From a candidate division WOR-3 bacterium (GTDB lineage Bacteria; Hydrothermota; UBA3072; B12-G15), in the NCBI GenBank assembly GCA_965649055.1, contig CBFGJG010000056.1, positions 1 through 11,498 on the forward strand: DNA of 11,498 bases, written 5' to 3'. Shown here one piece after another: positions 1 through 11,498 of this stretch; position 1 is the first letter of the stretch; the number at the start of each line of letters is the position of its first letter. Below the pieces are notes generated by a model, which was given only the letters and a program-made list of their open reading frames with translations, was not told where the DNA came from and did not search any database. A program made the position numbers and the translations under genes.

Positions 1-211
1 ATCTCTCTCTCTCGAGAGGGAATTTTTATACTGATGAATGCATAATAAAGAATTCCAGAATAAAGATATATTTAACATTAAAGAGGATAAAGTTTATTTG
101 AAGAACCCTTTGCACCTTTGCCCAAAGGTGTGAAGGGGAGACATAAAAGGGCATAAAAGGGTTTGATTTTAGCAAAAGAAAAAAATTAAAAATTTAAATG
201 GAGGTAATTTT
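1..211 (+). repeat. Conserved cassette leader, copy 1 (5' part truncated by window edge)
   Basis: 1-152 is nearly identical to 4879-5032 (one substitution at 100, a 2-nt indel in the hairpin loop, one substitution after the hairpin). Similarity resumes at the A-rich tract and GGAGGT RBS (200-205) before ATG 212. Contains a local 10-bp tandem duplication CATAAAAGGG x2 (142-161). Confidence 0.95.
106..153 (+). promoter_or_regulatory. Conserved leader stem-loop (candidate cis-regulatory RNA element)
   Basis: CCCTTTGCACCTT pairs with AAGGTGTGAAGGG (13 bp, two G-U pairs on the + transcript). Arms are identical in all three leader copies. Loop GCCC is complementary to a downstream GGGC. Confidence 0.6.
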
Positions 212-385
212 ATGATTGAAATAGTATTTCCTGGGATAATAGTAGATGCCTTAATCGGAAGAGCGAAACCAGAATGTAGATGCGATTGCTGGGATAGAGG
301 TTCAAGAGAAGGGGAAAACTGTTCAGCAGGTTCATATTGTAGCGCTCGTATGGATATAGGACAATTTGATGCATTTGCAGTATAA
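212..385 (+). CDS. Cys-rich RiPP precursor peptide 1, 57 aa: MIEIVFPGIIVDALIGRAKPECRCDCWDRGSREGENCSAGSYCSARMDIGQFDAFAV
   Basis: Manual translation; not in the ORF track. GGAGGT RBS 6 nt before the ATG; 5 Cys including CxCxC; directly upstream of a rSAM/SPASM gene; same position relative to the leader as the other precursors. Confidence 0.9.
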   Translation: MIEIVFPGIIVDALIGRAKPECRCDCWDRGSREGENCSAGSYCSARMDIGQFDAFAV

Positions 386-1858: not shown

Positions 1859-2939
1859 TAAATTTTTGTTATTTATCTTTATTTTATTTCTAAATTGTTC
1901 TAAATACATTGAAAAAACCATAAATTTTAAGATTGCGAAAGAAATAGAAAGAGAAAGCCACTTTGAAGGCTTATATTTTCCTCAGTATATGGGAGGGAAT
2001 GATAGTTTTTTAATAATTTCAGGCATTCAGAGTCCTTCTCTTATGATAAATATAGAAAGAGATGAGGTTATAGAAACATTAGCGATTGATGGAGAAGGAC
2101 CAGGTGAAAAGAAGAACTGGGGGGATGCTCATTTCTATGGGAATAAACTACTTTGCGCTTATCATAGTAAGTTGATGGTTTATGAAAAAGAGAAGAATGG
2201 TTATAAACTAAACAAAGAGCTCGCTCTTCCTTTTAATGGATGGTATTTTAGGATTTTAAATGATACTTTATTAGTTTTTATGGTGATTGATAGATATGAA
2301 AATTTGTTTGTATTATTTAATTGGGATAATGGGAAGGTTCTATTAGAGTTTGGGGATGCACTTGTCTATCCTCAAAGAAGATGGAGACAAAAATTATTAC
2401 CTGATTTTCCTTATTATTTTTGTGTATATGATAGTTTTTTAATAGTATATGATTATTTTGTAAACAAATTTATTGTATATGACATTTTTAGCAAAAAAAA
2501 GATGATAATTTCTTGTCGTTCTATTAAGTATTGGAAAACTCCAAAAGTTAAATTTGATAAAAAACTACATAGATTTGTTACTCAGTGTCCCAAAGTAAAA
2601 ATAGCAACGAATGGGAAATATTTGTTTATAATGTTTGAAAAAGCTTGGTTATACAATTGGTCAATTTATAATAATAAGAAGATTAAGAATATGAGCCAAA
2701 AAGAAAAAGCAGATTTATATTCATCTTTATTTTATTATTTTATAGATGTTTATTTATTAGAAAATTATAAATATGTTGGGAGTATTTATCCATTCAACTC
2801 AAGCATCTTATTTAATGAAGATAAAAATATTCTTTATGAACCTGAATTGTTAATTGTTAATAAAGATAAAATAATAATTTTCCTTACTGATAATTGCAAA
2901 TTCAAAGTTAAATTACTACATATAAAAATTGACCTCTAA
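1851..2939 (+). CDS. Putative lipoprotein, 6-bladed beta-propeller-like, 362 aa
   Basis: N-terminus MNNK + hydrophobic stretch + FLNC (lipobox-like Cys16); GEGPGE motif typical of 6-bladed beta-propeller proteins; beta-strand-rich pattern; overlaps the upstream stop (translational coupling). Confidence 0.65.
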   Translation: MNNKFLLFIFILFLNCSKYIEKTINFKIAKEIERESHFEGLYFPQYMGGNDSFLIISGIQSPSLMINIERDEVIETLAIDGEGPGEKKNWGDAHFYGNKLLCAYHSKLMVYEKEKNGYKLNKELALPFNGWYFRILNDTLLVFMVIDRYENLFVLFNWDNGKVLLEFGDALVYPQRRWRQKLLPDFPYYFCVYDSFLIVYDYFVNKFIVYDIFSKKKMIISCRSIKYWKTPKVKFDKKLHRFVTQCPKVKIATNGKYLFIMFEKAWLYNWSIYNNKKIKNMSQKEKADLYSSLFYYFIDVYLLENYKYVGSIYPFNSSILFNEDKNILYEPELLIVNKDKIIIFLTDNCKFKVKLLHIKIDL

Positions 2940-4578
2940 TCCCTTTCTCCGTTTTCTTAGATTTCTTTCACCTTATTGGAGAAAGGGATTATTAGCATTT
3001 TTCTTTATGCTTGTTTCTATTCTCTTACAACTTCCAATGCCTTTCTTAACAAGATATATTCTTGATGATGTTATAAGGATGAGGAGTTTTAAGGTTCTTA
3101 ATATAATAGGGTTTTCTCTTATAGGTGTAATTATTATTCAAGGTATATCATTTTTTGTTGAAAGATATTTGCTTTCAACATTCAGGGCAAAGGTCTTGTT
3201 TGATTTGAAGGTTACATTATTAGATAAGATAGAGAGATTAAAATTATCATATTTTCATAATAAAGAGACAGGTTATCTTATGAGCAGGATTCAAGATGAT
3301 ACAAATCAGGTTCAGGGACTTCTTGCAGATACATTTATCTCATTTGTTCAAAATTTTCTCACATTCATAGTTGGGATATGTGCGACATTTTATTTACACT
3401 ATAAACTTGCAATAATATGTCTTTCAATATTGCCTTTATATGCTTTAACAACATATATATTTAATAAGAGGATAAGGGATTTGAGTTATGAATTAAGGGA
3501 GGCATTTGCGAAGGTATCAAAGGATTTACAGGAGTTGTTGTCAGGTATAATGATAATTAAGGCATTTACAGGAGAAAGATATGGGACATTAAGATTTATA
3601 AGGAGTTTGAGAGAAGGGATAAGGAAGACAGTTAAACTTGATATTACAGCAACTATATTTAATATTTTTTCAAATGTTATCTCATCAACAGGTCCAATAA
3701 TTTTGATATGGTATGGATGTTATGAGATAATGAAAGGGAGATTAACGATAGGCACACTTGTGGCGTTTAATTCATTTATCAGGTATCTATTTGCTCCCAC
3801 GCAAGCATTTATGCAGATGAATATTTCTATTCAGCAATCAATAGTTTCAATAAGGAGGATATTTGAGATAATGGATGAGGAGGAGGAAAGAGATAGAGGA
3901 ATAAAGATTGAAAGGATAGAAGGTAAAATTGAGTTTAAAAATGTTTATTTTTCTTATGATGGTATGAATGATATATTAAAGAACTTTTCATTGTTGATAT
4001 TTCCGGGTGAGAAGATAGGGGTAGTGGGAGAGAGTGGGATTGGTAAATCAACAATAGCAGGGTTAATTTTAAGGTTTTATGAACATAGGGAAGGAAAGAT
4101 TATGATAGATGGGATAGATATAAGGGATATTAATTTGAAATCATTGAGGGAAAGTATAAGTTATGTATCACAGGATATATTTTTGTTTTCAGATACGATA
4201 AGGGAGAATATAAGATTAGGTAAGAGAAATGCAACAGATATTGAGATAATAGAGGCTGCAAGGATATCAGGAGTTATGGATTTTGTGAAAAAGAAAGGGG
4301 GAGGTCTTGATACGAAGATAGGTGAAAGGGGGATAAGGCTTTCAGGTGGTGAGAGGCAGAGGATAGCGATAGCGAGGGCAGTATTAAAGAATGCACCTAT
4401 TGTGATACTTGATGAGGCAACGAGTAATCTTGATATAAAAAATGAGAAGAAGATAATAAGGCTTGCAATGGATATATTTAGGGGAAAGACGATGATAATT
4501 ATAACGCATAGAAAAACTCCATTAAATATGCTTGATAGGATAATAAAGATAGAAAATGGTAGTGCAAAAGAATTGTGA
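2929..4578 (+). CDS. ABC exporter, fused permease/ATPase (MdlB/MsbA-type) without a C39 peptidase domain, 549 aa
   Basis: N-terminal TM helices; Walker A GESGIGKST, Q-loop YVSQD, signature LSGGE, Walker B VILDE, H-loop ITHR. The TTG start is supported by alignment with the ATG of the remnant copy at 10699. Confidence 0.95.
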   Translation: MTSNPFLRFLRFLSPYWRKGLLAFFFMLVSILLQLPMPFLTRYILDDVIRMRSFKVLNIIGFSLIGVIIIQGISFFVERYLLSTFRAKVLFDLKVTLLDKIERLKLSYFHNKETGYLMSRIQDDTNQVQGLLADTFISFVQNFLTFIVGICATFYLHYKLAIICLSILPLYALTTYIFNKRIRDLSYELREAFAKVSKDLQELLSGIMIIKAFTGERYGTLRFIRSLREGIRKTVKLDITATIFNIFSNVISSTGPIILIWYGCYEIMKGRLTIGTLVAFNSFIRYLFAPTQAFMQMNISIQQSIVSIRRIFEIMDEEEERDRGIKIERIEGKIEFKNVYFSYDGMNDILKNFSLLIFPGEKIGVVGESGIGKSTIAGLILRFYEHREGKIMIDGIDIRDINLKSLRESISYVSQDIFLFSDTIRENIRLGKRNATDIEIIEAARISGVMDFVKKKGGGLDTKIGERGIRLSGGERQRIAIARAVLKNAPIVILDEATSNLDIKNEKKIIRLAMDIFRGKTMIIITHRKTPLNMLDRIIKIENGSAKEL

Positions 4579-4807
4579 TTTTTCTTGATTATTTTTATTA
4601 TATTGATAAAATAATTATATGTTTTTAATAATTTCTTTAACACTTCAAGATATAGATTCTCTTGCTTTGAAAAATGCTTCTGAGATAATAAACCTAAGGG
4701 AAAATCTTTATTCGCTTCAAGATGAATATAGAACTCTTTTTTCTCACTTTTTACAACCATTGATAATTCTTTATTTTTAAATATAGAAAATTTTTCAAAA
4801 AAAATCC

Positions 4808-4836
4808 TTGACAGGATTATATTTTTTATTTATAAA
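4808..4836 (+). promoter_or_regulatory. Sigma70-type promoter TTGACA-17 nt-TATAAA, with inverted repeat AATCCT-N4-AGGATT (4803-4818) over the -35 box
   Basis: Perfect -35 at 4808-4813, 17-nt spacer, 5/6 -10 at 4831-4836; lies at the 5' side of the repeated leader. Confidence 0.7.
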
Positions 4837-4983
4837 TAAAATATGCTTATGAGTTTCATCAAAAGCAGAAATAAATTAATCTCTCTCTCTCGAGAGGGAA
4901 TTTTTATACTGATGAATGCATAATAAAGAATTCCAGAATAAAGATATATTTAACATTAAAGAGGATAAAGTTTATTTAAAGAA

Positions 4984-5032
4984 CCCTTTGCACCTTCTTG
5001 CCCAAAGGTGTGAAGGGAAGACATAAAAGGGC
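4984..5032 (+). promoter_or_regulatory. Conserved leader stem-loop, copy 2
   Basis: CCCTTTGCACCTT-CTTGCCCA-AAGGTGTGAAGGG (4984-5017) with downstream GGGC (5029-5032). Confidence 0.6.
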
Positions 5033-5080: not shown

Positions 5081-5323
5081 ATGAAAAAAATAAAATGTAT
5101 TATTATACTATTAATGTTAATTGGAATTATATGTAATTTATTTCTGACTTCGTCAGCAAATGAAATTCCATCGTTAGGTGATGGATTTGAATATCCACCA
5201 TATGAAGATGGAGGTGGTGAAGGGAATGTTCCAACTGGAACTAGATATTGGAGTGGATTTCCAGATAATCCTATATGGAACTGTGATTGTTATAACGTTG
5301 GTAATACTTGTTGGTGTGGATAA
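5081..5323 (+). CDS. Secreted Cys-rich peptide, 80 aa (Sec-type signal peptide; C-terminal CDC...CWCG)
   Basis: GGAGGT RBS; MKKIK + hydrophobic core + SSA cleavage-like site; acidic Gly/Pro-rich linker; WNCDCYNVGNTCWCG C-terminus. Confidence 0.88.
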   Translation: MKKIKCIIILLMLIGIICNLFLTSSANEIPSLGDGFEYPPYEDGGGEGNVPTGTRYWSGFPDNPIWNCDCYNVGNTCWCG

Positions 5324-5360: not shown

Positions 5361-6362
5361 ATGATTTTGATTATTTTTTCACTTACTTTTGAAGAAATCT
5401 TTACACTTATAGATATTGATTCTCTGACTTCACAAATAATTTGCCATTATGGCCAAACACCAAGGATATATATATGGAAAGATAACTATATATTAGACTA
5501 TAATAATACTATGTGGTCAAAAGGTAAAGAAAAACTCATAGCAAATTTTGGGGATGGCCCTGATGAAATAACGAAAGGTTCTATGGTAAGACTTTATAAA
5601 GATTATTGTTACTTTCTTACTTCAAATGGTATTATGTCAATTTACAACTTAGAAAAAGATGAAATGGTGTTGAAAAGAATTATAAGAAATATTGGTATAA
5701 TTTTTGATTTTACCCTTGATTCAAGAGGGAACATTTTTATTTTTAGGCATAAGTCCTTATTCAGAGGTGGAAAACCTTGGTATGGTATTCAAAGGTTGAA
5801 GCCGGATGGGACACCTGAAAATAAAAATTTTCTTGAATTAGATGAGGAATACTTTGAATGGGTATTACAAATTGGGACTACAAGGGGGATGATTGAGATA
5901 CTTAATGATACATTATATTTTATAGAACCTCATAAACCTATTTTTTATAAATTTACTACAGATGGGAAATTGATAAAAAAATGTAAACTCAAAATTGAAA
6001 GATTTATTCCGCCAAAAGAAAAGTTTAAACCTCAAAGAATAGTTACAAATGATGAATGGTTTAAAAAAACTATAGAATGGGGAGAGACTTGGACACCACC
6101 TTTGAGGCTACTAAAGATACCACCTAAATATCTTCTAATATTTTATTTTGATAAAGGTGCATATATTGAAAAACCTAATGGTTTTATTGTTCTAATAGAT
6201 ACAAACGGAGATATATTAGATGAGATTAATATTGATAAACAACCTATTGGAATAGATGATAATGGAATTATATATTTTGCATCACCAAAACAGATAAACA
6301 AGAATGGCACTATGAAGATATTTAAATACAAGTTGAACATTGAGACGGGAAAAAATAAATAA
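5361..6362 (+). CDS. 6-bladed beta-propeller-like protein, 333 aa
   Basis: FGDGPDE motif near the N-terminus; NHL/propeller-like blades (FDFTLDSRGNIFIF, FYKFTTDGKLIK, LIDTNGDIL, IGIDDNGIIYF); short hydrophobic N-terminus. Confidence 0.7.
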   Translation: MILIIFSLTFEEIFTLIDIDSLTSQIICHYGQTPRIYIWKDNYILDYNNTMWSKGKEKLIANFGDGPDEITKGSMVRLYKDYCYFLTSNGIMSIYNLEKDEMVLKRIIRNIGIIFDFTLDSRGNIFIFRHKSLFRGGKPWYGIQRLKPDGTPENKNFLELDEEYFEWVLQIGTTRGMIEILNDTLYFIEPHKPIFYKFTTDGKLIKKCKLKIERFIPPKEKFKPQRIVTNDEWFKKTIEWGETWTPPLRLLKIPPKYLLIFYFDKGAYIEKPNGFIVLIDTNGDILDEINIDKQPIGIDDNGIIYFASPKQINKNGTMKIFKYKLNIETGKNK

Positions 6363-6379: not shown

Positions 6380-6979
6380 ATGAGAGCATTACGTATGATA
6401 AAAAAGAATATAATTTCTGAATTTCTTTTTTATTTAGTTGTCATTGTAATAATATTTTTTCAAAGCAAAATGATTATTTCAAGTAAAATGGAAGTATCTT
6501 TTTATAAAGTTCTTCTTTCTAATGTTCCTTTGAAGGAATATTCAATTATGAAGGAATATTCAATTATTTTAAGAGATACACTTTCAAATGATTTTGAATT
6601 TAATAATTTATATGGGAAAGGGATTTGTCTTATCTCAACAATATCACCGAAGGATTGTGGTAGTTGTCTTGAAGATGAGATAGAGTTTTTGAAGTATTTA
6701 AGAAAGAATATACCTGCATTACAGGTAATAGTTTTAATAGAGCATTATTATGGTTCAAATAAAGAGATATCGCCATGGATTAAAGACTATGGGATAGAAT
6801 ATCCATATTATTTTGATGTTGGTGGTATAGAGGATAGATGTTCATTAAAGAGTAGTTTATCTTGGAATTTTATAGTTAAAGATGGGAAGATAATAACGAG
6901 TTTTCTTCCACCGAAGGGGAGAATGGAAAAGAAGATATGTTTAAATTTATTAAGGGAATATGTGAGGATGAAGATATAA
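6380..6979 (+). CDS. Membrane-anchored thioredoxin-fold (TlpA/redoxin-like) CxxC protein, ~199 aa; exact start uncertain
   Basis: N-terminal TM helix; beta strand then DCGSC then helix (LEDEIEFLKYL); later YGIEYPYYFD and FIVKDGKI segments typical of TlpA/AhpC-like folds. Confidence 0.7.
   Translation: MRALRMIKKNIISEFLFYLVVIVIIFFQSKMIISSKMEVSFYKVLLSNVPLKEYSIMKEYSIILRDTLSNDFEFNNLYGKGICLISTISPKDCGSCLEDEIEFLKYLRKNIPALQVIVLIEHYYGSNKEISPWIKDYGIEYPYYFDVGGIEDRCSLKSSLSWNFIVKDGKIITSFLPPKGRMEKKICLNLLREYVRMKI
6531..6566 (+). repeat. In-frame 18-bp tandem duplication
   Basis: TGAAGGAATATTCAATTA x2, encoding KEYSIM-KEYSII. Confidence 0.95.
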
Positions 6980-7061
6980 ATAAAAAAAATCCTTTACTGG
7001 ATTCTATTTTTTTTATCAAAAGCAGGAATAAAATAAACTCTATCGAAAGGGAATTTTTATA

Positions 7062-7090
7062 TTGATAAAAGGATAAAAGATATATATAAT
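7062..7090 (+). promoter_or_regulatory. Candidate sigma70 promoter TTGATA-17 nt-TATAAT unique to leader copy 3
   Basis: TTGATA 7062-7067, 17-nt spacer, perfect TATAAT 7085-7090. AT-rich context raises the chance-match rate. Confidence 0.55.
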
Positions 7091-7119
7091 TTTAAAGAGG
7101 ATAAAATTTATTTGAAGAA

Positions 7120-7167
7120 CCCTTTGCACCTTCTTGCCCAAAGGTGTGAAGGGAAGACATAGGGCAA
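7120..7167 (+). promoter_or_regulatory. Conserved leader stem-loop, copy 3
   Basis: Stem 7120-7153 identical to copy 2; loop TTGCCC complementary to GGGCAA at 7162-7167. Confidence 0.6.
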
Positions 7168-7201
7168 AATAAATGAAGATAAAACCTTAAAAGGAGGAAA
7201 A

Positions 7202-7354
7202 ATGATAAATATATTAAATTTGTTAGAGGGTAAAATAAAGCCAGTTTGTGGATGTGGTTGTCCCTGTTGGTGTGGTGGCGTTATTAATGATTATGCAAAT
7301 GGTTATATGGACGGTGCTTGTGACGCTGGGCTTGCCTCTAATGAAGCTGCATAA
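7202..7354 (+). CDS. Cys-rich RiPP precursor peptide 3, 50 aa: MINILNLLEGKIKPVCGCGCPCWCGGVINDYANGYMDGACDAGLASNEAA
   Basis: Manual translation; not in the ORF track. AAGGAGG RBS; CxCxCxCxC plus a sixth Cys; directly upstream of the second rSAM/SPASM gene. Confidence 0.92.
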   Translation: MINILNLLEGKIKPVCGCGCPCWCGGVINDYANGYMDGACDAGLASNEAA

Positions 7355-7374
7355 AGAATGGATGCTAGTAGTCA

Positions 7375-7409
7375 TAATCCCGGGAAGACTAAAGTCCTTC
7401 CCGGGATTA
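7375..7409 (+). terminator. Perfect 13-bp hairpin between precursor 3 and maturase (no U-tract; likely stabiliser or attenuator)
   Basis: TAATCCCGGGAAG-ACTAAAGTC-CTTCCCGGGATTA. Confidence 0.7.
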
Positions 7410-7432
7410 ACATAACATTTAATAAATAATAG

Positions 7433-8878
7433 ATGAATGTTAAGAAATTTTTTATAAATAATAGGTTTTTCGTTTATGACAGAAATACTAATTTTATTTT
7501 AGAAGTAGATGAGAGGTTGTATAATATTCTTGATGAAAAAATAGGTTTTAATGAAAAAATAAAACGCAAAATCAAAAGAGACAGAAGTTTGAGCGAAACT
7601 ATAAAAAATATTGAAAATATACAAAATCAATATGGATGTTTCAGACCATTGGAACTAAAAGGATTTAAGTTTGACGAAAAAATGAAAAAAGAAAATATAA
7701 ACAGAGTGGTTCTCAATATAACGGAGGAATGTAATCTCAGATGTAAATATTGCACTTATTCAGGTTTATATAATGGTCATAGAGTTCATACAAATAAATT
7801 TATGGATTGGGCTATTGCTCAAAAAAGCATTGAGTTCTTTTTGAAACATTGTGATAATAAAGAAAAGCAAGTCTTAGGTTTCTATGGAGGTGAACCTTTA
7901 TTAAATTTTGAGATAATTGAGGCATCGGTGCGTTTTATTAAAAATAAAAATGTAAGAAATTTAAATTTTTCAATAACAACAAATGGAACCTTGCTGAATA
8001 AAAAAATTATTAATTTTTTTGTTGAAAATGACTTTCAGGTTTTTATAAGTCTTGATGGTCCTAAAGATATAAATGATATATATAGAGTTTTTCAAAATTA
8101 TAAAGGTTCTTTTGATATTGTATATAGAAATGCTTTATTTATAAAGAAATTATATCCTGAATACTACAATAAAAAGGTTGGGTTTTCTGTGGTTATTCAT
8201 CCGCCGTATAGATGCGAAGAATTTTATAAATTTTTTACAGAAAATCCATTAGTTAAAGATAACATTCATATTTTTTCTTTTGTGAATCCATTTGGAACAA
8301 CTTTTTATAATAATTTTACAAAGGAAGAAATTAATGAGTATCTCCCTTTCTGGAATAAGATTAGGGAAAAATTTGTAAAAATGATGGTGAAAGAAGAATA
8401 TAATGATGAGATAAAAATTCTGTTTGAACTTTTTGGAAAAAGTGTTTATCAAATACATTTAATGCCAAAAGGGATAATCAAAGAAAAATATTTACATCCT
8501 GGTGGAATATGTTATCCTGGTTTTTATAAAACATTTGTTGGAACCTCAGGAAAGATTTATCCGTGTGAAAAACTTGGATATGTTTTGGAGATAGGAGATA
8601 TATTTGAAGGGATAAATGTTAATATGGTTAATAATATTATTAATGAATTCATAAGTATAAAAGAAGAATTATGCAAAGAATGTTGGGCTGTAAGGTTATG
8701 TAATCCATGCTTTTTAAGTGCAATTGAAGGTAACAAATTTTCAGTTAAAAGAAAAAAAGAATTTTGCAATATGAATAAAAAAAATATTGAAAAGAATCTT
8801 GAAACATATATTATGATAATGATGGATAATAAAGATGCTTTTGATAGTGAAAAGTTTAAGGTAAGTTTTACTCAATGA
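7433..8878 (+). CDS. Radical SAM/SPASM peptide maturase (CcpM-like), 481 aa
   Basis: CNLRCKYC, YGGEPLL, TTNGTLL, SLDGP; C-terminal GICYPG...YPCEK...CKECWAVRLCNPC...C; RRE-like N-terminus (FFVYDRNTNFIL). Divergent paralogue of 437-1858. Confidence 0.93.
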   Translation: MNVKKFFINNRFFVYDRNTNFILEVDERLYNILDEKIGFNEKIKRKIKRDRSLSETIKNIENIQNQYGCFRPLELKGFKFDEKMKKENINRVVLNITEECNLRCKYCTYSGLYNGHRVHTNKFMDWAIAQKSIEFFLKHCDNKEKQVLGFYGGEPLLNFEIIEASVRFIKNKNVRNLNFSITTNGTLLNKKIINFFVENDFQVFISLDGPKDINDIYRVFQNYKGSFDIVYRNALFIKKLYPEYYNKKVGFSVVIHPPYRCEEFYKFFTENPLVKDNIHIFSFVNPFGTTFYNNFTKEEINEYLPFWNKIREKFVKMMVKEEYNDEIKILFELFGKSVYQIHLMPKGIIKEKYLHPGGICYPGFYKTFVGTSGKIYPCEKLGYVLEIGDIFEGINVNMVNNIINEFISIKEELCKECWAVRLCNPCFLSAIEGNKFSVKRKKEFCNMNKKNIEKNLETYIMIMMDNKDAFDSEKFKVSFTQ

Positions 8879-8885
8879 AGATATT

Positions 8886-9764
8886 ATGATTTTACTATTC
8901 ATATTAAGCAAAATGATCCTTAACGAGAAGTTCATAGGAGTTATAAGTGATATTGAAGGATTTAAATTTGTGAAAATTATAGATGAAAATTTTTATTTCT
9001 ATTCCAAAGAGATGTTAAAAGTATTAATTTATAATAAAAATTTATTTAAAATTGGAGAAATAGATTTTAAAGAAGGTGATTGTCCTGAATGTGTAAAAAG
9101 GAGATTTAATAACATATTTATAGATACAGAAAATATAATAGTCTGTTCACCATTTCAAAAGAAGATAGTTTTATATAATTCAAACGGAATATTTAAAAAA
9201 ATAATAAATACACAGAACCTTCCATATTTTGTATTAAAGGATAGAGAGAGGATAATGACATATGAAATTAAAGAGTATAAAAGTTTTATTGCTTTTTATG
9301 ATTTGAATGGAAAATTTCTTAATAATAAAGAAATACCCCAAACAGATTTTACAAAAAAATATAATGTCTATGAAATCCCATCAGCAATTTGTTTTGATAA
9401 TAGTAGATTATTTATACCTGAAAGCTACCGATTTGGAATTTGGGAATACATGATTGAAAAGGATATAATAAAAAGATTTATAAAAACAAGAGATTTCTTT
9501 AAAAATCCTATAATAAAGAAGAGGGGGAGCTCTACAGGAGTTATAATTTTATCAACTATCAATAATATTTTTATCTATGATTCATTAATTGTAATATATG
9601 CAATTGGAACAAAATGTGGAAATTTATTGCTGCTTTGTAATAAAAAAGGTGAAGAATTATTATTATTAAAAAAATTGAAATACGATGATATTATAACAGA
9701 TGGGAGAAATATTTATGCAATTAAGTCAGATACTATTTATAGCCTTTCTCTTCTCCAAAAGTAG
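8886..9764 (+). CDS. 6-bladed beta-propeller-like protein, 292 aa
   Basis: Short hydrophobic N-terminus; repeated blade motifs (IVLYNSNGIFKK, IAFYDLNGKFLN, LCNKKGEEL); EGDCPEC at the position of the GxGPxE motif. Confidence 0.6.
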   Translation: MILLFILSKMILNEKFIGVISDIEGFKFVKIIDENFYFYSKEMLKVLIYNKNLFKIGEIDFKEGDCPECVKRRFNNIFIDTENIIVCSPFQKKIVLYNSNGIFKKIINTQNLPYFVLKDRERIMTYEIKEYKSFIAFYDLNGKFLNNKEIPQTDFTKKYNVYEIPSAICFDNSRLFIPESYRFGIWEYMIEKDIIKRFIKTRDFFKNPIIKKRGSSTGVIILSTINNIFIYDSLIVIYAIGTKCGNLLLLCNKKGEELLLLKKLKYDDIITDGRNIYAIKSDTIYSLSLLQK

Positions 9765-10569
9765 TGCTAAATTAGGACTCCCATATGATATTGAGAAAAT
9801 TAATAATTTTTATGTTGTTCTTAATGTGGAAAAAAAATTACTATTTCTTAAAAGAGGTTTATTCTCATTTAAAGTGATAAAAGAAGTTGATTTGTCAAAT
9901 ACTATATCTTCACAATCATTTTTTTTAAAGGTTGATAGCATAGTATATCTGGTAACAGGATTTAAAAATACGGATTTTTATTCTATCAATTTTGACAGTT
10001 TGGAATATGTTAATTCCGTTCCTTATAAAGTTACTGGTGGAATTTCAACAGATGACTATATAATTTTATTTGGAAATTGGAAGGGTAAATTTATTCATTT
10101 CTATACAAAAAAATTTTTATATAAAAATTCATTTTTGGTTTCTTTTAAAATCATGGACAGGATTTATTCTTTTTATTCCTGTGATACAATTTATTTTACT
10201 TCACCTGAAAAATTGATTATCTATAAATTTATTGATACTATGCTATTGGATAGTATAATTATAGATAGTATGAATTGCATATTAAGTGTAAAATACGGAA
10301 ATAAAGATATAGTATTTAAGATTACTGGTTTTACAGGTCTTGTCTGGAGTAAGGAATTTAGTATAGTTCCTTCTTTTTTTAAATATCCTGATTCAATTTC
10401 TAATTTTCTTTTTGATAATAATAAGAGTATATTATCAAATTCCTATTTATTTTTTAAAGATAAAACAAAAAAGATTGGAGATGGGAGAATAACGATAAAA
10501 CAAGTAAATAAAATTTATTTTATTTTAAAAAACAAGAAAATTGAAGTTTTTAATTTTAGAAAATTATGA
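9715..10569 (+). CDS. Putative exported beta-rich (propeller-like) hypothetical protein; start probably ATG 9715 rather than 9700
   Basis: GGAG at 9703-9706 precedes ATG 9715; MQLSQILFIAFLFSKSSA resembles a signal peptide; blade-like FIHFYTKKFLYKNSF and DTIYFTSPEKLIIYKF, the latter resembling DTLYFIEPHKPIFYKF in 5361-6362. Confidence 0.55.
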   Translation: MQLSQILFIAFLFSKSSAKLGLPYDIEKINNFYVVLNVEKKLLFLKRGLFSFKVIKEVDLSNTISSQSFFLKVDSIVYLVTGFKNTDFYSINFDSLEYVNSVPYKVTGGISTDDYIILFGNWKGKFIHFYTKKFLYKNSFLVSFKIMDRIYSFYSCDTIYFTSPEKLIIYKFIDTMLLDSIIIDSMNCILSVKYGNKDIVFKITGFTGLVWSKEFSIVPSFFKYPDSISNFLFDNNKSILSNSYLFFKDKTKKIGDGRITIKQVNKIYFILKNKKIEVFNFRKL

Positions 10570-10706
10570 TAAAGATTTTAAATTTTAAAATGACAGATAT
10601 TAAACAAAATACTAAATGTGAATGTTTTTCTATTGGTTGTGAAAATAGTTCAGGGTATTTAGAAGGATATGCAATGGGTATGTATGCATTCTCTGGAAAT
10701 GAATAA
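10566..10706 (+). CDS. Second precursor-like peptide of cassette 3, 46 aa: MIKILNFKMTDIKQNTKCECFSIGCENSSGYLEGYAMGMYAFSGNE
   Basis: Manual translation. ATGA overlap with the upstream stop; shares MIxILN, IK, CxC, YxxGYxxG and NE with peptide 7202-7354. Confidence 0.75.
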   Translation: MIKILNFKMTDIKQNTKCECFSIGCENSSGYLEGYAMGMYAFSGNE

Positions 10707-10786
10707 TAATCTTCTTTTCCGTTTTTTTAGATTTTTTTCACCTTATTGGAGAAAGGATTATTAGCATTTTTCTTTATGCTTGTTTC
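10699..10786 (+). pseudogene. 5' remnant of the ABC exporter (frameshifted, rest deleted)
   Basis: Aligns with 2929-3017. MNNNLLFRFFRFFSPYWRK vs MTSNPFLRFLRFLSPYWRK; a 1-nt deletion (AAGGATT vs AAGGGATT) gives TAG at 10762-10764. Confidence 0.92.
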
Positions 10787-10794
10787 ATTTATAT

Positions 10795-10844
10795 CCATTG
10801 ATAATTCTATATTTCTTGAATATAAAAATTTTCAAAAAAAGTCC
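10795..10844 (+). repeat. Start of a fourth leader/promoter copy, cut by the IS
   Basis: CCATTGATAATTCT...AATAT...AAAATTTTCAAAAAAAGTCC matches 4757-4807; homology ends at the position of TTGACA. Confidence 0.8.
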
Positions 10845-11498
10845 TGTTATTTCTATAATATATGTCATATGTTTTTACTATAAAATATGTCACATTGTTT
10901 TCTAAACATAAGTTCTTTCCTTCAATATTTCTTCTATTCTTCTTTCTTTCCTTATCATTTCATTATTTTCTGATATCTTTGTTTCAAGTATTACTTCTCC
11001 ATTATAAAGTATCCATACTTTATTCTCTTTTGATATCCTCAACTCAACAATAGCCCTTGCAAAGTTTAATTTCTTTCCTGTCGGATTAAGTTGTATCTTT
11101 TCCTTAAATATGCTTATTGTATTATCCTTGTTTACTCTCCTATAATATCTCTTAGTAAATATTAAATCAAGATCTTTCTTTCCTATATCCCTGTATACCG
11201 AACCCTCTACTTTATGGGAATATTTCAAATTATACCAGGGAATAAACTCTTCTACAAGATATTTATTCGCTTCTTCATAGTCCTTTATCTTCCTTATCCA
11301 CATCTCGTTTATTAGTCTGTCTTGAAAAACTCCAAATAGCCTTTCTATTCTTCCTTTCGCTTGCGGTGAATTCGCTGTTATCAATGTTATTCCTAATTCT
11401 TCAAGTGCTTTCTGTATATTCGTGTCCTCTTGTTCCTCGCTTACATCGTAATGTATACCTCCAATCCTTGTCGTCTTAAAATGTGATGCCCTGTCCAC
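10845..11498 (-). mobile_element. IS1202-like (ISNCY; IS481-related) insertion sequence, right end, partial
   Basis: End starts with TGT at 10845 exactly where leader homology stops; two ~25-bp imperfect direct repeats (TGTTATTTCTATAATATATGTCA at 10845, TGTTTTTACTATAAAATATGTCA at 10870) adjacent to the transposase stop. Confidence 0.8.
10902..11498 (-). CDS. DDE transposase, IS1202-like (ISNCY), C-terminal part; N-terminus lies outside the window
   Basis: ALEELGITLITANSPQAKGRIERLFGVFQDRL integrase-core motif and RRVNKDNTISI C-terminal motif; ORF is open at the window edge. Confidence 0.9.
   Translation of the reverse strand: MDRASHFKTTRIGGIHYDVSEEQEDTNIQKALEELGITLITANSPQAKGRIERLFGVFQDRLINEMWIRKIKDYEEANKYLVEEFIPWYNLKYSHKVEGSVYRDIGKKDLDLIFTKRYYRRVNKDNTISIFKEKIQLNPTGKKLNFARAIVELRISKENKVWILYNGEVILETKISENNEMIRKERRIEEILKERTYV

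What the first reader, a model, noticed from the sequence alone, without database searches (positions are those of the whole stretch)
7202..7354. Hidden precursor 3 with CGCGCPCWC donor block and periodic Gly/Asx C-terminal half
Seen: five alternating Cys, a GG turn, then NDYANGYMDGACDAG with Asn/Asp-Gly/Ala recurring every 4 residues (ANG, MDG, CDA). Established: sactipeptides form nested hairpins between N-terminal Cys and C-terminal acceptors, and ranthipeptides link Cys to Asp/Glu side-chain carbons. Inference: a ladder of up to five thioethers between a strand-like Cys block and a helical acceptor segment.
Basis: partly seen in the sequence, partly recalled or inferred. Interest (0 to 1): 0.78.

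Follow-up and report, generated by a model that had tools for sequence, protein, structure and literature searches.

The report
Cysteine-ladder peptide precursor, radical-SAM operon
This 50-codon gene is a real precursor of a small cysteine-rich peptide that the neighbouring radical-SAM enzyme most likely stitches into sulfur-bridged rings, and it belongs to an undescribed two-peptide gene cluster seen so far in a few uncultured bacteria.

Summary
ORF 7202-7354 encodes the 50-aa peptide as described, and its Cys and Tyr/Gly patterns never arose in 300 shuffles.

It is a real gene. It has a 62%-identical orthologue. It belongs to a family of 15 aligned peptides with invariant M1, C20, C22, G34 and Y35. 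These peptides lie in a conserved operon: peptide A, rSAM/SPASM maturase, two ~300-aa proteins (one modelled as a beta-propeller), peptide B, ABC exporter. In the window, P3 is peptide A and ORF 10566-10706 is peptide B.

The maturase is nearest to CcpM but scores below its cut-off (338 vs 500 bits). It keeps the CxxxCxxC motif and all seven SPASM Cys. A complex model places leader residues 1-8 on its N-terminal domain (score 0.67, best control 0.32).

Thioether cross-linking is the most likely chemistry but remains untested. The five-rung Asx ladder is not a family trait: only two Cys are invariant, and the N33 and D41 positions vary.

No curated family covers the peptides. The strings I searched were absent from a 3,421-precursor set.

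The scan found no look-alike by sequence on other DNA. It had found other Cys-rich rSAM cassettes of the same kind.

The parts
7011..7161 (+). Upstream element shared with the regions in front of the other two Cys-peptide genes (7-145 and 4854-5025). It holds a promoter-like site (7062-7090) and a conserved inverted repeat, CCCTTTGCACCTT..AAGGTGTGAAGGG.
   Evidence: 79% identity over about 150 nt; promoter-like TTGATA-17-TATAAT; fold of 7095-7205 z = -2.2.
7192..7197 (+). Shine-Dalgarno AGGAGG, 4 nt before the ATG
   Evidence: Read from the sequence.
7202..7354 (+). P3, the A-type precursor peptide (50 aa). Leader: about residues 1-15, with MIxIL invariant in the family. Cys block: C16-C24 (7247-7273). 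Tail: Y31-G38 YANGYMDG (7292-7315).
7375..7409 (+). Intergenic hairpin between precursor and maturase, with no T-run after it. By analogy, a likely attenuator or mRNA-stabilising structure.
   Evidence: z = -4.5; no terminator-like site was called.
7433..8878 (+). Radical SAM/SPASM peptide maturase (481 aa) with an N-terminal RRE-like leader-binding domain.
   Evidence: TIGR04068 CcpM 338.3 bits (cut-off 500), RumMC 208.5, PapB 159.4. Aligns to CteB from residue 4. Invariant C100 and C107 (C104 nearly invariant), plus seven SPASM Cys: C360, C378, C414, C417, C423, C426, C445. Complex model.
8886..9764 (+). Accessory protein X (292 aa), predicted six-bladed NHL-like beta-propeller with a hydrophobic N-terminus.
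   Evidence: AF2 with a 12-row alignment: pLDDT 81.4, pTM 0.78. Foldseek: Brat NHL TMq 0.61-0.64. ESM Atlas lead DUF5128, 0.94. No Pfam or NCBIfam hit.
9700..10569 (+). Accessory protein Y (289 aa; start uncertain, because the ORF overlaps X by 65 nt). It has a signal-peptide-like N-terminus and holds the same operon position as the ~280-aa proteins in relatives.
10566..10706 (+). P4, the B-type precursor peptide (46 aa). Its start overlaps the stop of Y (ATGA). Motifs: CxCx4C and GYLEGYAMG.
   Evidence: (P0009).
10707..10845 (+). Remnant of an ABC exporter gene. 10707-10786 is 91% identical to the 5' end of the intact ABC gene (2937-3017), and 10788-10845 is 85% identical to 4750-4808. The body of the gene is deleted.
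2929..4578 (+). Intact ABC exporter (549 aa, no C39 peptidase domain) of the neighbouring cassette. It is a candidate exporter acting in trans.
   Evidence: Homologous ABC genes follow peptide B in L023, L053 and L054.

Best explanation
ORF 7202-7354 is the A-type precursor of a two-peptide (A/B), ribosomally made and enzyme-modified peptide system. Its short N-terminal leader (MINILNLL...) docks as a strand on the RRE-like N-terminal domain of the radical SAM/SPASM enzyme encoded 79 nt downstream. That enzyme then uses 5'-deoxyadenosyl radical chemistry to join cysteine sulfurs of the CxC(xC) block to carbons in the conserved (Y/L)xxGYx(D/E/N)G tail, producing a hairpin of thioether rings. 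The same enzyme probably also matures the B-type peptide at 10566-10706. The products are exported by an ABC transporter; in relatives this is an ABC, outer-membrane factor and adaptor set. The two beta-propeller-like proteins act outside the cytoplasm, as immunity or processing factors. Shown: the gene is real, the family is conserved, the synteny holds, the enzyme has the expected cofactor motifs, and the leader-enzyme docking is modelled. Inferred: the thioether chemistry, the number and position of the links, the alpha versus beta carbon, the roles of X and Y, and the biological activity (antimicrobial or signalling).
For: (1) Real gene. It has a strong RBS. One orthologue is 62% identical (E 1.3e-8) among 1.84 billion representatives. 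A profile search found 9 family peptides. The same family turned up in 8 of 272 genomes of the phylum once I had dropped three weak rows.
(2) Position. Small MIxI-leader, CxCxC peptides sit just upstream of maturase homologues in the loci. The order A, rSAM, X, Y, B, ABC recurs in L023, L053 and L054, and in part in L056. L024 has A, rSAM, B, X, Y, ABC.
(3) Enzyme. Its best NCBIfam matches are CcpM (uncharacterised), lachnocin rSAM (not found in print), RumMC (named a sactipeptide maturase), GG_samocin (an unspecified peptide maturase), then PapB, QhpD and SCIFF (thioether-related). The CxxxCxxC motif and seven SPASM Cys are kept across 14 homologues.
(4) Docking. Complex model score 0.67, best of 3 controls 0.32. 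That mark was reached by 116 of 157 solved complexes and 2 of 215 mismatched pairs; these counts hold only roughly, because my own alignments were used. The runs agree in at least 28% of contacts, and the partner's pLDDT is at least 37. The confident contacts are peptide residues 1-8 with enzyme residues 13, 20-26, 29, 59, 63 and 67. These peptide residues include the family-invariant leader positions.
(5) Precedent. StsA (CxCxCx4GxGxG) receives three Cys-to-Gly sactionines arranged as a hairpin (PMC10288494, passages and section 7 read). That paper's supplementary table labels alternating-Cys precursors 'Hypervariable Sacti'.
(6) Export. In relatives, ABC, OEP-like and MFP/HlyD-like genes follow the operon.
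Against: No chemistry has been measured, and CcpM, the nearest named family, is itself structurally uncharacterised: in SacP23 the thioethers 'remain to be elucidated' (PMC10731318, passages read). The maturase falls below every curated cut-off. The complex model may succeed from memory of solved rSAM-leader complexes, and it places the core with low confidence (pLDDT 37). The maturases next to the most similar peptides are not the closest to this one: 31-35% identity, against 37-39% for enzymes with different cores. One genome (L055) has an A-type peptide with no maturase in the 14 kb examined. The operon's own exporter gene is deleted and an IS fragment abuts it, so the cassette may be decaying. 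No leader peptidase was found.
Confidence: 0.55

Rival explanations
1. One reading: a ranthipeptide-like ladder of up to five thioethers from C16, C18, C20, C22 and C24 onto side-chain or backbone carbons of the Asn/Asp-Gly/Ala positions that recur every four residues (N33, D37, D41...), with a strand-like donor block facing a helical acceptor segment.
For: P3 and its orthologue P0002 do carry five or six Cys in the block. The period-four pattern is real, and Y31, G34, Y35 and G38 are conserved. The D37 column is D/N/E in 13 of 15 peptides. PapB, QhpD and SCIFF models match the enzyme.
Against: Only C20 and C22 are invariant, and other members have 3-4 Cys. The N33 column is Asx in 3 of 15 and the D41 column is Asp in 7 of 15. 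In the closest orthologue N33 is Ala and D37 is Ser. The B-type paralogue P4 has no Asp at all after its Cys block. The ranthisynthase models score far below their cut-offs: 159 vs 340, 148 vs 453 and 137 vs 425.
Confidence: 0.12
2. The enzyme works on the invariant Tyr motif instead, for example a cyclophane-type C-C or C-O cross-link on YxxG. The Cys block stays as thiols, disulfides or a metal site.
For: Y35 is invariant and Y31 nearly so. Cyclophane-forming rSAM models (YhhB, GrrM/OscB, FxsB, XyeB) give partial matches.
Against: Those matches cover only the rSAM core (for example YhhB 93 bits vs cut-off 445, residues 90-271). The full-length best matches are CcpM, lachnocin rSAM, RumMC and the GG_samocin peptide maturase. 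Y31 is Leu in 3 of 15 peptides. The CxC pair is as invariant as the G-Y pair.
Confidence: 0.12
3. The peptide is not a substrate of the maturase. It is a free Cys-rich metal-binding or redox peptide, and the enzyme serves only other peptides in the window.
For: Alternating Cys can chelate metals. Four Cys-rich small ORFs and two maturases share the window.
Against: The peptide keeps its position in front of the maturase across genomes. The leader is invariant, and the model docks it on the enzyme.
Confidence: 0.05
4. A chance ORF or a mis-framed sequence.
For: Antisense and +3 frame ORFs of similar length overlap it (7223-7375 on the minus strand, 7248-7415 on the plus strand).
Against: It has homologues with conserved motifs in at least 8 genomes. 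It has an RBS. The pattern never arose in 300 shuffles.
Confidence: 0.01

Closest known systems
CcpM / CLI_3235 'Cys-rich peptide' system of Firmicutes (NCBIfam TIGR04068; SacP23 of Paenibacillus polymyxa, PMC10731318)
   Same: It is the best-matching enzyme model, and the match is full-length (residues 4-463 on model positions 3-457). The substrate is a Cys-rich precursor, and an ABC transporter is nearby.
   Different: The score is 338 bits against a cut-off of 500. None of the 18 peptides tested hit any NCBIfam precursor model. The companion genes listed for SacP23 (TIGR04066, the TIGR04069 ACP-like protein, a subtilase) are not in the window. This system instead has two beta-propeller-like proteins and a second precursor type. 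The structure of a CcpM product is itself unsolved.
StsA/StsB sactipeptide (Streptomyces sparsogenes; PMC10288494)
   Same: The donors are alternating Cys (CxCxC), followed by a conserved Gly-containing acceptor segment. Three Cys-to-Gly alpha-thioethers in a hairpin were proven there.
   Different: The StsA acceptors are GxGxG, four residues after the block. Here the tail is (Y/L)xxGYxxG, 9-11 residues after the CxCxC. StsB is MftC-like with a separate RRE protein. This enzyme is CcpM/RumMC-like with a fused N-terminal domain.
Thuricin CD (Trn-alpha/Trn-beta), a two-peptide sactibiotic (PMC3132745, abstract in the search listing only)
   Same: Two distinct precursors sit in one operon, with rSAM maturation, intrapeptide S-to-alpha-carbon bridges and an ABC exporter.
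   Different: From my recall, thuricin CD has two rSAM enzymes (TrnC, TrnD) and CxxxC-spaced donors. Here one maturase sits between the two precursors, the donors are CxC, and synergy between A and B is untested.
Ruminococcin C / RumMC (NF035951; PMC6760926, search listing only)
   Same: It is the third-best enzyme model (208.5 bits). The 'RumMC' class precursors in the PMC10288494 supplement contain CxC and CGCGC blocks close to GY-containing stretches.
   Different: The score is far below the cut-off of 720. The leader (MKFINP...) and the core differ.
CteB/CteA (SCIFF, thermocellin), solved structure 5WGG/5WHY
   Same: It is the best solved relative (E 3.1e-29). Its N-terminal RRE and SPASM domain align with this enzyme. 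[quoted passage not shown]
   Different: Four of the six residues differ, including the two after the auxiliary-cluster Cys. The SCIFF model scores 137 bits against a cut-off of 425. The SCIFF six-Cys precursor motif is absent.

Membership tests
CcpM / CLI_3235 system (TIGR04068) | Maturase reaches the curated TIGR04068 cut-off (500 bits) | tested here: not met
   338.3 bits for 7433-8878 and 296.5 bits for 437-1858.
CcpM / CLI_3235 system (TIGR04068) | Precursor matches the curated CLI_3235-type precursor model | tested here: not met
   No NCBIfam model matched P3, P4, P0002 or 11 more of the 18 related peptides at E <= 10. The other four gave only weak hits to unrelated models, E 0.039 or higher. 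That the CLI_3235 model is TIGR04065 is my recall.
CcpM / CLI_3235 system (TIGR04068) | Companion genes (TIGR04066 protein, TIGR04069 ACP-like protein, subtilase), as listed for SacP23 in PMC10731318 | tested here: not met
   None of the 13 window proteins hit these models.
Sactipeptides | Radical SAM enzyme with CxxxCxxC and a SPASM or twitch auxiliary-cluster domain | tested here: met
   CNLRCKYC at residues 100-107. Seven SPASM Cys are invariant in 14 homologues.
Sactipeptides | Leader peptide recognised by an RRE domain | tested here: inconclusive
   Residues 4-95 align to the N-terminal domain of CteB. The complex model scores 0.67 against a best control of 0.32, with leader residues 1-8 on enzyme residues 20-26. 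This is a model only, and it may reflect likeness to solved complexes.
Sactipeptides | Cys donors lie N-terminal to a Cys-poor acceptor segment (hairpin topology) | tested here: met
   The alignment of 15 peptides shows a CxC(xC) block followed by a conserved tail.
Sactipeptides | Sulfur-to-alpha-carbon thioether in the product | not testable with these tools
   Needs MS and NMR.
Ranthipeptides (PapB, QhpD, SCIFF types) | Enzyme reaches a ranthisynthase model cut-off | tested here: not met
   PapB 159.4 vs 340; QhpD 148.1 vs 453; SCIFF 136.9 vs 425.
Ranthipeptides (PapB, QhpD, SCIFF types) | A conserved Asp/Glu/Asn/Thr acceptor paired with each donor Cys | tested here: not met
   Only the D37 column is D/N/E, in 13 of 15 peptides. 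The N33 column is Asx in 3 of 15 and the D41 column is Asp in 7 of 15.
StsA-type sactipeptides | CxCxCx4GxGxG core | tested here: not met
   CxCxC is present, but the tail is YxxGYxxG at a greater distance. The motif is taken from PMC10288494.
Triceptide / cyclophane-forming rSAM systems (XyeB, GrrM/OscB, FxsB, YhhB) | Enzyme reaches one of these model cut-offs | tested here: not met
   YhhB 93.2 vs 445; FxsB 60.5 vs 370; XyeB 57.2 vs 450. The matches cover only the rSAM core.
Two-peptide sactibiotics (thuricin CD type) | Two distinct precursor genes in one operon | tested here: met
   A and B types lie in one operon in the window, L023, L024 and L053. In L054 and L056, B lies downstream of the maturase and the contig begins inside the maturase gene.
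Two-peptide sactibiotics (thuricin CD type) | Synergistic activity of the two modified peptides | not testable with these tools
   Needs a bioassay.

The most novel reading that the evidence does not exclude
P3 and P4 are the two halves of a new class of two-component, thioether-bridged peptide. A single CcpM-like enzyme links an invariant CxC pair onto an invariant Gly-Tyr dipeptide, a donor/acceptor pair that I found described nowhere. The paired extracytoplasmic beta-propellers are a new kind of dedicated immunity or processing module. The A-type variant in this window has expanded the donor block to five rungs.
Probability: 0.25. Interest if true: 0.65.

Novelty: new variant of a known kind. 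Interest (0 to 1): 0.45.

Why it matters
Radical-SAM cross-linked peptides supply unusually stable antibiotics and signalling molecules, and each new precursor and enzyme pairing has tended to reveal new ring chemistry. This family has three notable features. Its invariant core is very small (CxC ... GY). It has two precursor types served by one enzyme. Its accessory set (two beta-propellers and a tripartite exporter) differs from the Firmicute CcpM clusters.

The family comes from uncultured bacteria. A DNA run that holds 0.43 of the sampled words of this stretch is labelled hot springs metagenome, so the products may be heat-stable.

The enzyme clade is large and unnamed: 1,836 proteins scored E <= 1e-40 among 8,000 candidates, and sources call them at most 'radical SAM protein'. 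Solving one member would therefore allow many others to be annotated.

Tried and rejected
- P0001 alone in the word-indexed protein search returned only itself.
- The search for related loci with the maturase in genome contigs matched 115 pattern stretches, none confirmed. The genome search then found the relatives.
- The search for related loci with alignment A2 gave an error because no stretch was conserved enough.
- P0001 in metagenome contigs returned 3 loci. All were short CGCPCWC matches inside long high-GC frames, which I judged spurious.
- In one search, I dropped three of the 18 places (L043, L044, L045; E 0.002-0.01) because they have internal stops or lack the GY motif. L041 and L042 are family members but are cut or have an unclear start, so I left them out of alignment A6.
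- Rfam at E <= 1 gave only a chance microRNA hit (E 0.88).
- The terminator scan found none.
- Single-sequence AF2 of protein X was unusable (pLDDT 40.4). The 12-row alignment rescued it.
- Pfam and NCBIfam found nothing for X, Y, their relatives, or the 199-aa CGSC protein, even at E <= 10.
- BLAST and phmmer link X and Y to their positional counterparts only weakly (best E 0.001-0.004).
- Expression: no RNA holder was listed, and read laying was not run.
- Catalytic-site-proximity typing (alpha versus non-alpha): I could extract the six residues, but the reference profiles are in a supplementary PDF that the tool could not read. No call was possible.
- Haft and Basu 2011 (the CLI_3235 description) is not held.
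- 'lachnocin' and 'DUF5128' each returned 0 papers.
- I considered and rejected TOMM/listeriolysin-type and FibroRumin-type assignments. Only related peptides gave chance-level hits to those models (E 0.08-9.8), and no cyclodehydratase is present in the window.

Full report
OBSERVATION

Window 7202-7354 (+) translates to a 50-residue peptide, MINILNLLEGKIKPVCGCGCPCWCGGVINDYANGYMDGACDAGLASNEAA.
- five alternating Cys (C16-C24);
- G25-G26;
- N29-G43, with N33-G34, D37-G38 and D41-A42 four residues apart.

AGGAGG lies four bases before the ATG. A TTGATA-17-TATAAT site lies at 7062-7090, although that scan found no more sites than its shuffles did. A 15-bp hairpin with no T-run (7375-7409; z = -4.5) separates the ORF from the next gene.

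The window is 27.5% G+C. I translated it in six frames and compared it with 300 Markov shuffles:
- C.C.C.C.C: observed 1, shuffle mean 0.0;
- C.C.C: observed 4, mean 0.11;
- Y..GY..G: observed 2, mean 0.06.

None of the 300 shuffles reached the observed value for any of the three.

IS IT A GENE?

The word-indexed search with the peptide alone found only itself. An exhaustive phmmer run over 1.84 billion representatives gave one true orthologue, P0002 (53 aa, 62% identity, E 1.3e-8). The three other hits were repetitive, unrelated proteins.

I searched 201 genomes of the same phylum with the downstream enzyme; 20 had a match at E <= 1e-30. Small Cys-rich ORFs next to these enzyme genes share a short MIxI(L/I/M) N-terminus and a CxCxC... 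block. Three of them (L008, L011, L013), together with the window's own ORF 10566-10706, also share the YxxGYxxG tail.

A profile built from these peptides retrieved 9 distinct peptides from 5.8 billion clusters, none of them named by any source. The same profile run over 272 genomes of the phylum gave 18 places in 11 genomes. I dropped three weak places that had internal stops or lacked the motif (L043, L044, L045). That leaves 8 genomes in four taxonomic families. None was found in the 3 other genomes of the window's own family, nor in the 20 of the next family. The distribution is therefore patchy.

TWO PEPTIDE TYPES IN ONE OPERON

The extra hits fall downstream of the maturase. Mapping the ORFs gives a recurrent gene order:
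1. peptide A
2. rSAM maturase
3. protein X (~300 aa)
4. protein Y (~280 aa)
5. peptide B
6. ABC exporter

This order is seen in L023 and L053, and also in L054 and L056, whose contigs begin inside the maturase gene. L024 has the order A, rSAM, B, X, Y, ABC. In L023 and L053 an OEP-like gene and an MFP/HlyD-like adaptor gene follow.

The window has the same order:
- P3 (peptide A): 7202-7354
- maturase: 7433-8878
- X: 8886-9764
- Y: 9700-10569
- P4 (peptide B): 10566-10706, with its start overlapping the stop of Y

After P4 the window has only a remnant of the exporter gene. 10707-10786 is 91% identical to the 5' end of the intact ABC gene at 2929-4578, and 10788-10845 matches 4750-4808. An ISNCY transposase fragment follows.

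Counter-examples:
- L055 has an A-type peptide with no maturase in 14 kb.
- In G195 and G202 the A and B peptides lie on different short contigs.

WHAT IS CONSERVED IN THE PEPTIDES

In the alignment of 15 A and B peptides, the invariant positions are M1, C20, C22, G34 and Y35; I2 is nearly invariant. Reading the columns:

| Column (P3 numbering) | Residues across 15 peptides |
|---|---|
| Y31 | Tyr in 12, Leu in 3 |
| N33 | Asx in 3 |
| D37 | D/N/E in 13 |
| G38 | Gly in 13, Ser in 2 |
| D41 | Asp in 7, all A-type |

Most members carry 3 or 4 Cys (CxC(xC)x4-5C). Only P3 and P0002 have the expanded PCGCxCPCWCGG block. In P0002, N33 is Ala and D37 is Ser. P4 has no Asp after its Cys block.

Five donors are particular to this variant.

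THE ENZYME

ORF 7433-8878 (481 aa) matches these NCBIfam models:

| Model | Bits | Cut-off |
|---|---|---|
| CcpM, TIGR04068 (full length) | 338.3 | 500 |
| lachnocin rSAM | 212.2 | 550 |
| RumMC | 208.5 | 720 |
| GG_samocin | 194.1 | 300 |
| PapB | 159.4 | 340 |
| QhpD | 148.1 | 453 |
| SCIFF | 136.9 | 425 |

Cyclophane-forming models match only the rSAM core.

Its best solved relative is CteB (E 3.1e-29), and the alignment starts at residue 4, so the N-terminal RRE-like domain is present. Fourteen homologues keep C100 and C107 (C104 is nearly invariant), GGEP, and seven SPASM Cys: C360, C378, C414, C417, C423, C426 and C445.

[quoted passage not shown] They correspond here to T108, Y151, T182, S206, E379 and K380 (my reading of the alignment, in which chain numbering is offset by +3). 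The reference profiles needed to type alpha versus non-alpha enzymes are in a PDF supplement that could not be read. I therefore make no call on the linkage carbon.

The enzyme clade is large and unnamed: 1,836 proteins at E <= 1e-40 among the 8,000 candidates scored, named at most 'radical SAM protein'. One is 78% identical and one 48% identical.

DOCKING

I ran a complex prediction with my own alignments (14 enzyme rows, 9 peptide rows). The result:
- It scored 0.67 against a best control of 0.32.
- That mark was reached by 116 of 157 solved complexes and 2 of 215 mismatched pairs. These counts hold only roughly here.
- The runs agree in at least 28% of contacts, and the partner's pLDDT is at least 37.
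- The confident contacts are peptide residues 1-8 with enzyme residues 13, 20-26, 29, 59, 63 and 67, plus 342, 346 and 460-467.

This is the geometry expected of a leader strand on an RRE. From recall, a leader-bound CteB structure exists, so the pass may reflect likeness to that complex. The core was not placed with confidence.

ACCESSORY PROTEINS

X and Y have no Pfam or NCBIfam match, even at E <= 10. They resemble their positional counterparts only weakly (best E 0.001-0.004).

With a 12-row alignment, X folds with pLDDT 81.4 and pTM 0.78 as an all-beta repeat protein. Its best-superposing matches are six-bladed NHL propellers (Brat NHL, TMq 0.61-0.64, rmsd 4.3-5.3). This agrees with an ESM Atlas lead to DUF5128 six-bladed propellers (0.94).

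X and Y have hydrophobic N-termini, so they probably act outside the cytoplasm. An immunity or processing role is my inference only.

COMPARISON WITH WHAT IS KNOWN

Nearest named system: CcpM/CLI_3235. Its one studied product, SacP23, kills Gram-positive bacteria, but its thioethers 'remain to be elucidated' (PMC10731318, passages read). Membership fails on score, on the precursor model and on the companion genes.

Nearest chemical precedent: StsA. Its CxCxCx4GxGxG core receives three Cys-to-Gly sactionines in a hairpin (PMC10288494, passages read). That paper's supplementary table of 3,421 precursors includes alternating-Cys cores labelled 'Hypervariable Sacti'. It contains none of the family-specific strings I searched: five core strings, and the two tail motifs and three of four four-letter leader strings. 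The fourth leader string hit once, inside an unrelated precursor.

Two-peptide architecture: this recalls thuricin CD (PMC3132745, abstract in the search listing only).

Literature searches: CcpM gave 1 paper, TIGR04068 gave 3 and CLI_3235 gave 2. None of the 4 listed papers that I opened by passages (PMC9062424, PMC10731318, PMC10288494, PMC7470986) describes this family; the rest I saw only as listings. 'lachnocin' and 'DUF5128' gave 0 papers.

The scan's own notes hold no look-alike by sequence. They do hold several other Cys-rich peptide and rSAM cassettes in ultra-small bacteria. The kind is therefore common in this scan, while this particular family is new to it.

VERDICT

This is a real precursor gene, confidently paired with its maturase, in a conserved and undescribed two-peptide operon. 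Thioether hairpin formation is the most likely chemistry (about 0.55). It remains possible for this variant in a modified form, with the rungs landing on the invariant Gly/Tyr positions. I class it as a new variant of a known kind, of moderate interest.

Noticed in passing
window 7-145, 4854-5025, 7011-7161; L060 (G000:C17:273-407, minus strand): A ~150-nt element, 79% identical between copies, precedes all three Cys-peptide genes P1, P2 and P3. It includes the inverted repeat CCCTTTGCACCTT..AAGGTGTGAAGGG. A fourth copy (72% identity) on another contig precedes a peptide ORF that is not Cys-rich and runs off the contig end. It may be a shared promoter or regulatory module, or a small repeat.
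   Followed up: partly
window 10707-10845: A deletion remnant of an ABC exporter gene directly after peptide B. Its 5' end is 91% identical to the intact ABC gene at 2937-3017, which points to a recent cassette duplication followed by decay next to an IS fragment.
   Followed up: partly
window 212-385 and 437-1858: A second cassette: a 57-aa peptide (MIEIV leader, CRCDCW block) in front of a second CcpM-like maturase (32% identical to the first). One 362-aa protein with a lipoprotein-like signal follows, and then the intact ABC exporter.
   Followed up: partly
window 5081-5323, 5361-6362, 6380-6979: An 80-aa ORF sits behind the same upstream element. It has a hydrophobic, signal-like N-terminus and a C-terminal NCDCYNVGNTCWCG. 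A 333-aa unknown protein follows, then a 199-aa protein with a CGSC (CxxC) motif. None of the three has a family match.
   Followed up: no
window 10902-11498 (-): A fragment of an ISNCY-family transposase (E 1.4e-38 but below cut-off) runs off the contig end. The whole window is one 11,498-base contig.
   Followed up: no
L003 (G000:C7:1-3170), ORF 211-387: A third, more distant rSAM/SPASM homologue in the same genome (28% identity). It has its own 58-aa Gly/Cys-rich ORF upstream, ending ...GGGGCGDTCKGVICGGSCVGGWCGYSTCG.
   Followed up: no
L055 (G038:C5:19000-33000), ORF 3646-3789: An A-type peptide (P0011) stands with no maturase, X/Y or ABC homologue detected in the 14 kb examined.
   Followed up: no
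loci L006, L007, L012, L015, L017, L020, L021, L014, L005: Maturase homologues in other families of the phylum are preceded by peptides with the same MIxI-type leader. Those peptides have 4-8 alternating Cys and quite different tails, so this is a broad, hypervariable precursor superfamily.
   Followed up: partly
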